Assembly: GCF_003334355.1 (NCBI RefSeq)
Contig: NZ_QOWP01000088.1
Origin: Escherichia coli
Lineage (GTDB): Bacteria; Pseudomonadota; Gammaproteobacteria; Enterobacterales; Enterobacteriaceae
Length of the DNA: 1,403 bases
Direction: 5' to 3' (one strand)
The translations under genes were made by a program, and so were the position numbers. Positions 9-1,113 of the stretch are shown here, one piece after another (positions within the stretch are counted from its first letter, which is position 1; every line of letters starts with the position of its first letter). Under the pieces are notes generated by a model, which was given only the letters and a program-made list of their open reading frames with translations, did no database searches and was not told the origin of the DNA.

Positions 9-19
9 ATGGACGCTCC
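9..19. repeat. Left subterminal inverted repeat (IRL), ATGGACGCTCC
   Basis: Exact reverse complement of 1374-1384 (GGAGCGTCCAT). The two copies sit near opposite ends of the window, outside the CDS. Confidence 0.7.
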
Positions 20-75
20 AGATTTTACGGTATCAAAGTACCAGACTGGATCGTTGCAATACGTCCTGAAAAATT

Positions 76-80
76 AGGAG
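76..80 (+). promoter_or_regulatory. Shine-Dalgarno sequence (AGGAG) for the transposase
   Basis: AGGAG lies 7 nt upstream of the ATG at 88-90. Confidence 0.65.
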
Positions 81-86
81 CGTCCA
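77..86. repeat. Internal third copy of the IR motif (GGAGCGTCCA), overlapping the RBS, in the same orientation as IRR and inverted relative to IRL
   Basis: 77-86 is identical to 1374-1383 and is the exact reverse complement of 10-19. Confidence 0.6.
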
Positions 87-87
87 C

Positions 88-1113
88 ATGAAAGTATCAA
101 CTCTTGGTATCGACCTGGCAAAGAACGTTTTTCAGCTTCATGGTGTCGATCATGAAGGCCATATTATTTTGCGTAAAAAGCTCACCCGGGCTAAGTTTGT
201 TCAGTTTGTGATTCAACTGGAACCTTGTCTGATTGGCATGGAAGCCTGCTCATCCAGTCATTATTTTGCGCGATTATTCACCCGCTATGGTCATGAGGTA
301 AAACTCATACCTCCGCAGTATGTGAAGCCTTATGTGAAAACGAACAAGACGGATGCAGCAGATGCTGAAGCAATCTGCGAAGCGGTAACCCGTCCGAATA
401 TGCGTTTTGTTCAGATAAAAACCGAAGAGCAGCAGGCCGTTTTAGCGTTACACACTGAACGGGGAATACTTATCCGTGAGCGGATTGCCTGTGCCAATAG
501 TTTAAGAGCCACACTTGCTGAGTTTGGTATTACGATTGCGGCCGGACAAAGCCATTTAACCCGTGAGCTGCCAGCCATTCTGGAGGATAGCGAAAATGGT
601 TTATCTCCCTTTGTCAGAACCAGCATCTACAGACAGTCTAAACATATCCGGGAACTTGAAGAACAAGTTAAACAGGTAGAAGAAGCTCTGGCCTCCTGGT
701 ATAGAACGCAGGAAGCCTGCCAGAGAATGGCCAAAATCCCGGGGGTTGGCATGCTAACGGCCACTTATGTGGTAGCAGCAGTGGGTAATGCCCGACAATT
801 CAGTACCGCAAAGCAGTTCGCTTCATGGCTGGGGCTGACACCAAAGGAACATTCCAGCGGCGGGAAACAGCAACTGGGAGGGATCAGCAAACGTGGAGAT
901 GGATATTTCCGATACCTGCTGGTTCACGGCGCACGCGCACTTACCGCCTGGGTCAACCGAAACGGCGCGGTTGAGGAGAATTCCTGGCTTCAGGGACTCC
1001 TTGAGCGGAAGCACTACAATGTAGCTGTTGTCGCCATGGCGGCAAAAACAGCGAGGATCATGTGGTCAATGTTGTCACACAATACTGAATATCAACCTCG
1101 GCAGCTCGCCTGA
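88..1113 (+). CDS. IS110-family transposase / DEDD recombinase (N-terminal RuvC-like DEDD domain, coiled-coil linker, C-terminal Tnp domain with conserved serine)
   Basis: 341-aa ORF from the supplied track, ATG at 88 preceded by AGGAG at 76-80. N-terminal GIDLAK motif (D9, codon 112-114), GMEACSSSH (E52), KTDAADAEA (D89/D92), acidic/glutamine-rich linker (IRELEEQVKQVEEALA), and C-terminal LTPKEHSSGG...LGGISKRG (S256/S257, S267) match my recollection of IS110/IS1111 transposases such as IS621 and IS4321. No alignment was run. Confidence 0.92.
   Translation: MKVSTLGIDLAKNVFQLHGVDHEGHIILRKKLTRAKFVQFVIQLEPCLIGMEACSSSHYFARLFTRYGHEVKLIPPQYVKPYVKTNKTDAADAEAICEAVTRPNMRFVQIKTEEQQAVLALHTERGILIRERIACANSLRATLAEFGITIAAGQSHLTRELPAILEDSENGLSPFVRTSIYRQSKHIRELEEQVKQVEEALASWYRTQEACQRMAKIPGVGMLTATYVVAAVGNARQFSTAKQFASWLGLTPKEHSSGGKQQLGGISKRGDGYFRYLLVHGARALTAWVNRNGAVEENSWLQGLLERKHYNVAVVAMAAKTARIMWSMLSHNTEYQPRQLA

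What the first reader, a model, noticed from the sequence alone, without database searches (positions are those of the whole stretch)
10..90. Left IR can pair with the RBS-overlapping IR copy to hide the transposase translation start
TGGACGCTCC at 10-19 is exactly complementary to GGAGCGTCCA at 77-86, which overlaps the Shine-Dalgarno (76-80) and ends 1 nt before the ATG at 88. A transcript entering from outside the element would form a 10-bp stem that occludes the RBS. This fold-back protection against read-through is a known strategy in other IS families (for example IS10). The same motif could instead act as an internal transposase binding site for autoregulation.
Basis: inference. Interest (0 to 1): 0.5.

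Follow-up and report, generated by a model that had tools for sequence, protein, structure and literature searches.

The report
RBS-hiding leader hairpin of an IS1111-type IS
The left inverted repeat of this E. coli insertion sequence does pair with a copy next to the recombinase start codon, forming a leader hairpin that related elements also keep and that most likely holds recombinase translation low in every transcript, not only in read-through ones.

Summary
TGGACGCTCC (10-19) is the exact complement of GGAGCGTCCA (77-86), and the arms extend to 17 nt (10-26/70-86). The motif occurs three times against 0.07 expected. The leader folds far better than shuffles (z -4.0 to -4.6).

The window is a 1386-bp IS110-family element of the IS1111 group, at window 2-1387. 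It has an 11-bp subterminal IR, a DEDD recombinase gene (88-1113) and a 3' bridge/seekRNA region.

In relatives of 40-52% protein identity, including ISEc11, the Shine-Dalgarno region is again the 3' arm of a helix. Its 5' arm lies about 78 nt upstream of the ATG. The helix (P1) encloses a conserved hairpin (P2, GGCAUC-N4-GUGCC) and a variable one (P3). The arms covary: 90.7% of cells pair, against 23-50% in slid controls. No Rfam family matches.

In ISEc11-type relatives the true left IR lies 117-206 nt upstream of the ATG, and in ISEc11, L029, L024 and L054 it is unrelated to the arms. So the helix is a property of the mRNA leader. The third IR copy here exists because the anti-SD arm and the left IR occupy the same bases.

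The only credible promoter is the circle-junction one, TTGCAT-16-TATAAT. Its predicted start (11-13) keeps most of the stem. Read-through-specific protection of the IS10 kind is therefore only partly supported. An IS200-like constitutive translational brake fits best.

The parts
2..1387 (+). Insertion sequence, 1386 bp, IS110 family, IS1111 group. The boundaries are ambiguous by 1 nt either way because AT occurs at 1-2 and at 1387-1388.
   Evidence: Occupied versus empty yegH-asmA site. Boundaries set by the 7-bp left and 3-bp right extension rule for IS1111 elements (PMC11187229).
9..19 (.). Left subterminal inverted repeat (sTIR-L), ATGGACGCTCC.
   Evidence: Exact 11-nt complement of 1374-1384.
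10..26 (+). P1 5' arm, the anti-Shine-Dalgarno arm of the leader helix. Its first 10 nt are the sTIR-L.
   Evidence: The homologous arm in relatives covaries with the SD arm.
29..42 (+). P2, a conserved inner hairpin: GGUAUCAAAGUACC here, GGCAUC-N3-5-GUGCC in relatives.
   Evidence: Present once per element, 54-64 nt upstream of the ATG, in 21 loci. Predicted by RNAalifold on a sequence-only alignment.
48..66 (+). P3, a variable inner hairpin (48-50 and 52-54 pair with 61-66).
   Evidence: Single-sequence folds place a hairpin here in the 19 leaders of the P1/P2/P3 motif, but with unrelated sequences.
70..86 (+). P1 3' arm. It contains the Shine-Dalgarno AGGAG (76-80) and the third IR copy GGAGCGTCCA (77-86).
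88..1113 (+). DEDD recombinase/transposase gene, 341 aa.
   Evidence: ORF. NCBIfam NF033542 'IS110 family RNA-guided transposase', 358 bits against a cutoff of 140. RefSeq annotation.
1114..1373 (+). 3' non-coding region, the expected bridge/seekRNA locus. Candidate guides are 1221-1232 (complementary to the right target flank 1388-1399) and 1318-1325 (complementary to the right end, 1381-1388).
   Evidence: Inverted-repeat pairs I6 and I4. The position matches IS1111 seekRNAs (PMC11187229, PMC11208160). No Rfam match. The RNA itself was not modelled in detail.
1364..1369 (+). -35 hexamer TTGCAT of the predicted circle-junction promoter Pjunc. The -10 TATAAT forms only on circularisation, from 1386-1388 plus 3-5.
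   Evidence: Junction sequence reconstructed. The same layout (TTGC.. just upstream of IRR, CCAT-AT + AATGRG) is conserved in relatives. Pjunc has been shown for ISEc11 (PMC11187229).
1374..1384 (.). Right subterminal inverted repeat (sTIR-R), GGAGCGTCCAT.
93..121 (-). Minus-strand promoter-like site, TTGCCA-17-GATACT. It would start an antisense RNA about 2 nt upstream of the ATG, covering the whole leader. Status uncertain.
   Evidence: the number of such sites in the window is at chance level. A similar site at the same position occurs in 6 other elements, including ISEc11.

Best explanation
Positions 10-86 encode a structured leader of the recombinase mRNA. An outer helix P1 (10-26 with 70-86) closes a three-way junction that holds a conserved hairpin P2 (29-42) and a variable hairpin P3 (48-66). 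P1 buries the Shine-Dalgarno sequence and every base up to 1 nt before the AUG.

The leader acts in cis as a constitutive brake on recombinase translation. It is present in essentially every transcript that can encode the protein. That includes the transcript from the circle-junction promoter Pjunc, whose predicted start (window 11-13) lies at the 5' edge of the 5' arm.

In this short-left-end lineage the anti-SD arm and the left subterminal IR are the same nucleotides. The RBS arm is therefore necessarily a copy of the right IR. That explains the third IR copy without any DNA-binding role.

Because the junction-promoter start trims 1-3 pairs, read-through transcripts fold somewhat more tightly than native ones, so there may be modest extra protection against outside transcription.

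Shown: the sequence, the fold, its conservation and covariation, and the element's anatomy. Inferred: the transcription start, the effect on translation, and the size of any read-through discrimination.
For: Fold and chance tests:
- The fold and the repeat are well beyond chance.

Conservation and covariation:
- Single-sequence folds of 19 leaders from elements of 40-52% protein identity give the same P1/P2/P3 architecture, with z from -2.0 to -5.5.
- The 5' arm sits 75-82 nt upstream of the ATG, and arm sequences differ between elements. Examples: GGTCGCCCCT/AGGGGCGACC, TTGCCGTCCT/AGGACGGCAA, TGTGGCTCC/GGAGCCACA, GGTTCTC/GAGAACC.
- On a MAFFT-only alignment of 28 leaders, 78% of cells pair against 27-53% when partners are slid. 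The covariation score is 0.279 against 0.05-0.13.
- RNAalifold predicts P1 and P2 unaided.
- A covariance model hits one site per element in 28 of 29 matches, always the leader on the coding strand; the 29th is a weak antisense overlap (E 0.67). On the model alignment, which leans towards the structure, 90.7% of cells pair and 53 cells have both sides changed, against 4-12 in slid controls.
- The model also finds the motif upstream of an IS110-family gene in an unrelated viral-contig set (L099), with yet another arm sequence.

Independence from the IR:
- The left IR is at -117 to -206 in L017-21, L024, L026, L029, L030, L052 (ISEc11) and L054, while P1 stays at about -78.
- P1 arms are unrelated to the IR in ISEc11, L029, L024 and L054.

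Promoters:
- There is no plus-strand promoter-like site between the arms.
- The junction promoter reads TTGCAT-16-TATAAT and is conserved in layout.
- The authors of the ISEc11 study saw no other promoter in ISEc11 (PMC11187229).

Not needed for recombination:
- An ISEc11 mini-element with only 50 bp of left end transposes at 15-42% (PMC11187229). P1 in ISEc11 starts at about bp 71.

Precedents:
- In IS200, an SD-sequestering stem-loop inside the native 5'UTR blocks 30S binding (PMC4513863).
- In ISPpu9, weakening a 5'UTR structure that buries the RBS raised translation 26-fold (PMC8450116).
Against: - No transcription start, translation or structure-probing data exist for this element. The start at 11-13 is inferred from the spacing to the -10.
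- Folding energies of sense and antisense strands do not differ (mean difference 0.3 kcal/mol, 12 of 24 loci favour the sense strand). The strand assignment therefore rests on position relative to the SD and AUG and on U-G pairs at helix ends.
- If the only native transcript always carries the hairpin, how enough recombinase is ever made is unexplained.
- The strong sequence conservation of P2 is also not explained by a simple brake.
- IS4321, IS1618, IS5708, ISShdy1, ISSaen1 and several others do not match the model. IS5075 also fails to match, though its left IR still pairs with its RBS.
Confidence: 0.6

Rival explanations
1. IS10-type fold-back inhibition. Only transcripts that enter from flanking DNA carry the complete 5' arm. 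The element's own transcript lacks enough of it to translate well. The hairpin's purpose is then to stop outside promoters from activating transposition.
For: - In this element the 5' arm starts 8 nt from the left end, and the predicted junction-promoter start falls inside it.
- Opening energy falls from 15.7 to 9.7 kcal/mol if the start is A13, and to 8.2-8.8 for starts at 14-15.
- The element sits co-oriented 176 nt downstream of yegH, so read-through is plausible.
- In L011-L013 the SD-proximal arm pairs with a 5' arm lying over or upstream of the IS terminus, which a junction-promoter transcript would lack.
Against: - At the predicted start, 7-9 of the 10 core pairs and the whole 6-bp extension remain. 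The stem is still the minimum-free-energy structure for starts at 10-15.
- With 60 nt of real upstream flank, the read-through transcript's opening energy is 12.4 kcal/mol. That is no higher than for a start at 11.
- In ISEc11-type relatives both arms are far inside the element, so the conserved function of the helix cannot be discrimination.
- No internal promoter lies between the arms.
Confidence: 0.2
2. DNA-level role. The copy at 77-86 is a third binding site for the recombinase or bridge-RNA complex. It would serve autoregulation, or act as an alternative right end like the internal A'/B' boxes of ISPpu9.
For: - The copy is a direct repeat of the right end over 13 nt with one mismatch: GGAGCGTCCAcAT against GGAGCGTCCAtAT.
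- ISPpu9 uses internal end copies to make alternative circles (PMC12288879).
- The three copies covary together in short-left-end relatives L010, L048 and L053.
Against: - The complementarity between 10-26 and 70-86 extends 7 nt beyond the IR and is not shared with the right end.
- In ISEc11, L029, L024 and L054 the RBS arm has no similarity to the IR but still pairs with its partner.
- The triple covariation follows automatically when the 5' arm and the left IR are the same bases.
- ISEc11 ends of 50 and 46 bp suffice for transposition (PMC11187229).
- RNA co-purifying with the ISEc11 recombinase mapped to the 3' non-coding region (PMC11187229).
- The right-end guide candidate ATATATGG (1318-1325) does not match CCACATGA at the internal copy.
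Confidence: 0.05
3. The leader is a regulated switch or a stability element rather than a fixed brake. The conserved P2 hairpin would bind a host factor or the recombinase. Alternatively an art200/RNA-OUT-like antisense RNA from the minus-strand promoter at 121-93 pairs with the leader. A third possibility is that the 5'-terminal stem protects the mRNA from 5'-end-dependent decay.
For: - P2 keeps its sequence, not only its pairing, in 21 loci and occurs nowhere else in the elements.
- A promoter-like site with a predicted antisense start 2-3 nt upstream of the ATG recurs in 7 elements, including ISEc11.
- With a start at 11-13 the stem would sit at the very 5' end of the mRNA.
- IS200 and ISPpu9 both combine an RBS-burying structure with an antisense RNA (PMC4513863, PMC8450116).
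Against: - The number of promoter-like sites in the window is at chance level (2 found, 1.5 expected). The -35 derives from conserved codons, so recurrence at one position may reflect homology only.
- No complementarity between P1 arms and the 3' non-coding region exists apart from the IR itself.
- Leader RNA was not reported among recombinase-bound RNAs (PMC11187229).
- In long-left-end relatives the stem is not 5'-terminal.
Confidence: 0.15

Closest known systems
IS200 tnpA 5'UTR stem-loop (nt 69-138), with the antisense RNA art200
   Same: A roughly 70-nt hairpin lies inside the left end and inside the native 5'UTR, and its 3' arm sequesters the Shine-Dalgarno sequence. It acts constitutively in cis (PMC4513863). 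[quoted passage not shown]
   Different: IS200 is an unrelated family with a HUH transposase and no sequence relation. Its anti-SD arm is not an end repeat. IS200 also has a separate terminator against impinging transcription, which is absent here. The effect on 30S binding was measured for IS200 and is not measured here.
IS10/Tn10 fold-back inhibition of read-through transcripts (Davis, Simons and Kleckner 1985, cited from my own knowledge)
   Same: Sequence near the outside end pairs with the transposase ribosome-binding region when it is transcribed.
   Different: In IS10 the native promoter pIN lies inside the upstream partner, so the native mRNA lacks it completely. Here the predicted native start removes only 1-3 nt of a 17-nt arm, and in relatives none at all.
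ISPpu9 (IS110 family) tnp 5'UTR structure with Asr9 and Ssr9
   Same: It is in the same IS family. The 5'UTR structure buries the RBS, and mutations weakening it raised translation 26-fold (PMC8450116).
   Different: ISPpu9 belongs to the IS110 group, has a 245-nt 5'UTR and its own promoter Ptnp, and its circle junction creates no new promoter (PMC12288879). There is no evidence that the structures are homologous.
ISEc11 (IS1111 group), locus L052 here
   Same: It carries the homologous P1/P2/P3 leader (67 bits with model R1; fold). It has the same junction-promoter layout, TTGCAA-16-TAAAAT.
   Different: Its left end is 149 nt long. The left IR (ATGAATGCATCCC) is 143 nt upstream of the ATG and unrelated to the P1 arms (GTGTGGAG/CTCCACA). 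It therefore has no third IR copy. The papers I could read on ISEc11 do not mention the leader structure.
IS621 5' stem-loop brake and the ISPpu10 target-derived terminator (bioRxiv 10.64898/2026.03.19.712850)
   Same: Both are cis structures between the junction promoter and the recombinase gene, or at the left boundary. They damp expression or insulate against read-through in IS110-family elements.
   Different: Those act as transcription terminators and lie in or next to an upstream bridge RNA. The structure here has no U-tract and overlaps the RBS.

Membership tests
IS110 family, IS1111 group insertion sequence | DEDD (RuvC-like) IS110-type recombinase | tested here: met
   NF033542 transpos_IS110, 358 bits against a cutoff of 140, covering residues 6-333. 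RefSeq names it 'IS110 family RNA-guided transposase'.
IS110 family, IS1111 group insertion sequence | Subterminal inverted repeats of about 11-13 bp with a 7-bp left and 3-bp right extension | tested here: met
   11-nt perfect IR at 9-19 and 1374-1384. The empty-site comparison gives a 1386-bp insertion, which fits 2-1387, that is 7 bp and 3 bp beyond the IRs. The rule is from PMC11187229.
IS110 family, IS1111 group insertion sequence | Long non-coding region downstream of the recombinase gene that encodes a target-complementary RNA | tested here: inconclusive
   The 3' non-coding region is 274 nt against 86 nt on the 5' side. Positions 1221-1232 are complementary (11 of 12) to the right target flank. 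No Rfam match. The RNA and its loops were not modelled.
IS110 family, IS1111 group insertion sequence | Sequence-specific target and a promoter formed at the circle junction | tested here: met
   The same flanks occur at three Kluyvera sites and at the E. coli site, and the plasmid copy shares the right flank. The reconstructed junction gives TTGCAT-16-TATAAT. Circle formation itself cannot be tested with these tools.
IS10-type fold-back inhibition (read-through-specific) | The upstream pairing partner lies outside the native transcript, upstream of the native start | tested here: not met
   This rests on prediction only. The junction promoter's -10 ends at window 5, so the start is expected at 11-13, inside the arm's first 4 nt. 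No promoter-like site lies between the arms. In ISEc11-type relatives both arms are internal. An experimental start site is lacking.
IS10-type fold-back inhibition (read-through-specific) | The stem covers the ribosome-binding site | tested here: met
   Positions 70-86 pair, the SD is at 76-80 and the ATG at 88.
IS200-type constitutive SD-sequestering leader hairpin | Both arms lie within the native 5'UTR and the SD lies in the 3' arm | tested here: met
   This is clear for ISEc11-type relatives. In the window, 14-16 of the 17 arm positions remain in the predicted transcript.
IS200-type constitutive SD-sequestering leader hairpin | The structure reduces 30S binding and translation | not testable with these tools
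   Only computed opening energies are available: 9.7-15.7 kcal/mol with the arm against 7.3 without it.
Any curated Rfam RNA family | A match to a covariance model at or near the gathering score | tested here: not met
   The only hit with E up to 1 is a chance mir-611 match at 961-1018 (20 bits against a gathering score of 90). Nothing was found at 1-93.

The most novel reading that the evidence does not exclude
The P1/P2/P3 three-way junction would be an undescribed, widely conserved riboregulator of IS1111-group bridge-RNA recombinases, not a passive hairpin. The sequence-conserved P2 hairpin (GGCAUC-N4-GUGCC) would be bound by a protein, either the recombinase or a host factor. Alternatively the leader would be targeted by an art200-like antisense RNA started 2-3 nt upstream of the AUG. 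Either way, recombinase translation would be gated on the state of the element, circular versus integrated, or on copy number. In the short-left-end lineage the same bases would also serve as recombination end, promoter start region and anti-SD arm.
Probability: 0.15. Interest if true: 0.6.

Novelty: new member of a known kind. Interest (0 to 1): 0.4.

Why it matters
IS110/IS1111 recombinases and their bridge or seek RNAs are being developed as programmable genome-editing tools. Their natural expression control is poorly described.

A conserved leader that buries the RBS is a built-in brake on recombinase dosage. It should be considered when native left ends are kept in constructs, or removed to raise activity.

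The leader also explains a puzzling feature of some IS1111 elements, a third copy of the terminal repeat at the start codon. That copy follows from one stretch of DNA serving two roles.

The regulatory principle itself, a hairpin over the Shine-Dalgarno sequence of a transposase mRNA, is long known from IS10, IS50, IS200 and ISPpu9. A specialist would therefore find this tidy rather than surprising.

Tried and rejected
- Leader-peptide coupling. ORFs starting at the conserved ATGs of the left end (window 4-69 and 9-77) stay open up to the SD in most short-left-end relatives. A second frame is open just as often (10, 5 and 10 of 12 for the three frames), so there is no specific signal.
- Activation by pairing of the leader with the 3' non-coding region or bridge RNA. 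The only duplex beyond chance is the IR itself, and only in short-left-end elements. All other z-scores lie between -1.2 and +1.8.
- Strand assignment by energy. Sense and antisense folds are equally stable.
- Rfam. No family matched.
- Scan of viral contigs with the P2 motif ACGGCATC-N3-5-GTGCCA. Most of the loci returned are chance matches. Only 4 of the 80 scanned with the model match it, and one (L099) has a complete IS110-family gene downstream.
- L055, an 82%-identical plasmid relative, is a decayed copy with P2 deleted, the SD mutated and a premature stop. It is uninformative.
- RNAalifold on the first, gappy 28-sequence alignment returned no structure. A trimmed 19-sequence alignment did.
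- My first junction reconstruction used a 1384-bp element and gave a 14-nt promoter spacer. Recounting against the empty site gives 1386 bp and a 16-nt spacer.
- Prosseda 2006 (ISEc11 Pjunc) and Partridge and Hall 2003 (IS4321/IS5075) are not held in the library. I could not check whether either mentions this hairpin or a mapped start site.
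Full report
**Observation**

TGGACGCTCC lies at 10-19 and GGAGCGTCCA at 77-86. AGGAG lies at 76-80, and ATG at 88 opens a 341-codon ORF that ends at 1113.

The repeat finder shows more than was reported. The complementary arms run 10-26 and 70-86 (17 nt, 88%). A further copy, GGAGCGTCCAT at 1374-1384, is the exact complement of 9-19.

The 10-mer with up to one mismatch occurs three times against 0.07 expected, and no shuffle reaches three. A perfect hairpin of 10 nt or more with its 3' arm next to the start codon arises in 12 of 20,000 shuffled leaders.

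RNA folding of 1-110 gives the stem as the minimum-free-energy and centroid structure. The energy is -32.7 kcal/mol with z = -4.04. For 6-93 the z-score is -4.58.

**What the window is**

The protein matches NCBIfam NF033542, 'IS110 family RNA-guided transposase', at 358 bits against a cutoff of 140. The DNA is at least 99% identical in 176 complete E. coli genomes. The four copies whose surroundings I examined lie between yegH and asmA or on a plasmid.

Comparing an occupied site with the empty site of E. coli HS shows an insertion of 1386 bp with AT on both sides. Siddiquee et al. give a rule for IS1111 elements: 7 bp beyond the left IR and 3 bp beyond the right IR (PMC11187229). Under that rule the element is window 2-1387.

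The element has the IS1111-group layout: an 11-bp subterminal IR, a short left end of 86 nt and a long 3' non-coding region of 274 nt. In that region, 1221-1232 is complementary to the right target flank and 1318-1325 to the right end. This is what a bridge/seekRNA locus should show (PMC11187229, PMC11208160). Rfam 15 has no match anywhere relevant.

**The promoter**

IS1111 and IS110 elements excise as circles, and joining the ends creates a promoter, Pjunc. For ISEc11 the authors saw no other promoter (PMC11187229).

The reconstructed junction here reads TTGCAT, then 16 nt that contain the right IR, then TATAAT made of 1386-1388 plus 3-5. The same arrangement is conserved in relatives: TTGC.. 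just upstream of the right IR, and CCAT-AT joined to AATGRG. It also holds in ISEc11 as TTGCAA-16-TAAAAT.

The -10 ends at window 5, so by the usual spacing the start should be at about 11-13, inside the first bases of the left IR. This is an inference. No start site has been mapped. The consensus scan finds no plus-strand promoter-like site in the window, and in particular none between the two arms.

**Relatives**

I collected 34 loci from reference genomes and 16 from plasmids. They include named elements: IS4321, IS5075, IS1618, IS5708, ISShdy1 and ISSaen1. L052 is ISEc11. It is 1443 bp long, and its gene ends at bp 1169, which matches the published deletion coordinates.

In elements only 40-52% identical in protein, the SD region is again the 3' arm of an inverted repeat. 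The 5' arm lies 75-82 nt upstream of the ATG. The arm sequences differ from element to element.

Independent single-sequence folds of 19 such leaders all give the same architecture. An outer helix P1 closes on the SD. Inside it sit a small hairpin P2 with a conserved sequence (GGCAUC-N3-5-GUGCC) and a variable hairpin P3. The z-scores run from -2.0 to -5.5.

**Covariation**

- On a sequence-only MAFFT alignment of 28 leaders, outliers included, the P1+P2 pairs are 78% paired. Sliding the partners by 1-3 columns gives 27-53%. There are 36 double-sided changes against 8-15, and a covariation score of 0.279 against 0.05-0.13.
- RNAalifold on a trimmed 19-sequence alignment predicts P1 and P2 on its own. 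Pair types such as CG/UA/GC/UG occur at single positions.
- A covariance model built from that alignment hits one site per element in 28 of 29 matches, always the leader on the coding strand. The 29th is a weak antisense overlap (E 0.67).
- On the model alignment 90.7% of cells pair, and 53 cells have both sides changed against 4-12 in slid controls. That alignment leans towards the structure, so the MAFFT-only figures are the safer ones.
- The model also recovered the motif upstream of an IS110-family gene in a viral-contig scan, with yet another arm sequence, GGATGCCG/CGGCATCC.

**The key point for interpretation**

In L017-L021, L024, L026, L029, L030, L054 and ISEc11, the true left IR matches the right IR over 12-14 nt and lies 117-206 nt upstream of the ATG. 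P1 stays at about -78. In ISEc11, L029, L024 and L054 the P1 arms have no similarity to the IR.

The helix is therefore a property of the mRNA leader, not of the recombination ends. Only in short-left-end elements does the 5' arm coincide with the left IR. These are the window, L010, L048 and L053, more loosely L049, and IS5075 in a simpler form.

Where they coincide, two constraints apply. The left IR must be the complement of the right IR, and the RBS arm must be the complement of the 5' arm. Together they force the RBS arm to copy the right IR.

That accounts for the third copy without a DNA-binding function. It also accounts for the joint covariation of all three copies in L010, L048 and L053. 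The pairing between 20-26 and 70-76 is likewise not shared with the right end.

**Read-through-specific or constitutive?**

I computed the energy needed to open window 74-92.

| Transcript | Opening energy (kcal/mol) |
|---|---|
| From position 1 | 15.7 |
| With 60 nt of real upstream flank | 12.4 |
| Start at 11 | 15.4 |
| Start at 12 | 11.7 |
| Start at 13 | 9.7 |
| No 5' arm | 7.3 |

The stem remains the minimum-free-energy structure for starts at 10-15. There may therefore be a modest advantage for the native transcript. It is nothing like IS10, where the native mRNA lacks the upstream partner altogether (my own knowledge of Davis, Simons and Kleckner 1985). In ISEc11-type relatives there can be no discrimination at all.

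The closest functional parallel is IS200. Its 5'UTR stem-loop lies inside the native transcript and sequesters the SD (PMC4513863). Within the IS110 family the parallel is ISPpu9, where weakening a 5'UTR structure that buries the RBS raised translation 26-fold (PMC8450116).

The hairpin is not needed for recombination. ISEc11 mini-elements with a 50-bp left end, which lack P1 entirely, transpose at 15-42% (PMC11187229).

**Weak points**

- Everything about transcription start and translation is inferred.
- Energies do not distinguish the sense from the antisense strand. The assignment to the mRNA rests on the fixed position relative to the SD and AUG, and on U-G pairs at helix ends.
- The strong sequence conservation of P2, which occurs nowhere else in these elements, is not explained by a simple brake.
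- A minus-strand promoter-like site (TTGCCA-17-GATACT, 121 to 93) would start an antisense RNA 2-3 nt upstream of the ATG. A similar site recurs at the same place in six other elements, including ISEc11. This recalls art200 of IS200. However, the count of such sites in the window is at chance level, and the -35 derives from conserved codons.
- I found no complementarity between the leader and the 3' non-coding region beyond the IR.
- I found no specific leader ORF.

**Novelty**

The principle is old. I found no description of this leader in the papers I could search or read and no Rfam family. The two most relevant older papers are not in the library, so prior mention cannot be excluded.

I file it as a new member of a known kind, of moderate interest. 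Its practical relevance is to people engineering IS1111-type bridge recombinases.

Noticed in passing
window 1364-1388 joined to 3-5: Joining the ends creates a near-consensus sigma-70 promoter, TTGCAT-16-TATAAT. The right IR lies in the spacer and the left IR at the predicted start. Relatives and ISEc11 (TTGCAA-16-TAAAAT) keep the same layout.
   Followed up: partly
window 1-2 and 1387-1403; L006, L007, L009, L003: The target is a repeated REP-like site, ...TTTACAGGG AT|GTTACCTCGCGCCCG. Three Kluyvera chromosomal copies and the E. coli yegH-asmA copy have the same flanks. A plasmid copy shares only the right flank, GTTACCTC.
   Followed up: partly
window 1221-1232 and 1318-1325: These are candidate bridge/seekRNA guides. 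CGAGAGGTAACA is complementary to the right target flank (1388-1399), and ATATATGG to the right end (CCATATAT, 1381-1388). The RNA's structure and loops were not worked out, and Rfam has no matching family.
   Followed up: partly
window 93-121, minus strand: A promoter-like site, TTGCCA-17-GATACT, would start an antisense RNA 2-3 nt upstream of the ATG and cover the whole leader. A similar site occurs at the same position in L053, L019, L029, L031, L052 (ISEc11) and L033. It may be an art200/RNA-OUT-like regulator, or a by-product of conserved codons.
   Followed up: partly
window 29-42; 21 related loci: Hairpin P2 keeps its sequence (GGCAUC-N3-5-GUGCC) as well as its pairing. It occurs once per element, 54-64 nt upstream of the ATG. 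Its function is unknown.
   Followed up: partly
L011-L013 (Sphingomonadales), about 57-70 nt upstream of the ATG: The arm that pairs with the region just upstream of the SD (CCACTTGATGGCAT) lies over the left terminus and 5 nt of flank, upstream of the left IR. A junction-promoter transcript would lack it. This is the one configuration seen that would be truly read-through-specific. It covers only the first two bases of the SD.
   Followed up: no
L017, L018, L021, L030: outer left end versus inner P1 5' arm: In some long-left-end relatives the P1 5' arm and the bases before it (GATGAGTGGAxCCTC) resemble the true left terminus (AATGGGATGGACGCCTCC), with z up to 4.6. The RBS arm likewise resembles the right IR. 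This suggests an ancestral coincidence of arm and IR, followed by acquisition of a new outer end.
   Followed up: partly
L055 (E. coli plasmid NZ_OZ039654.1) 1470-1600: This is a decayed relative at 82% identity. P2 is deleted, the SD is mutated from GGAG to GGTG, and there is a premature stop at codon 10.
   Followed up: yes
L001 and L002, 3102-3549, compared with L004: Some strains carry a relE/parE toxin fragment and an HTH gene between the element and asmA. Other strains with the same insertion lack them.
   Followed up: no
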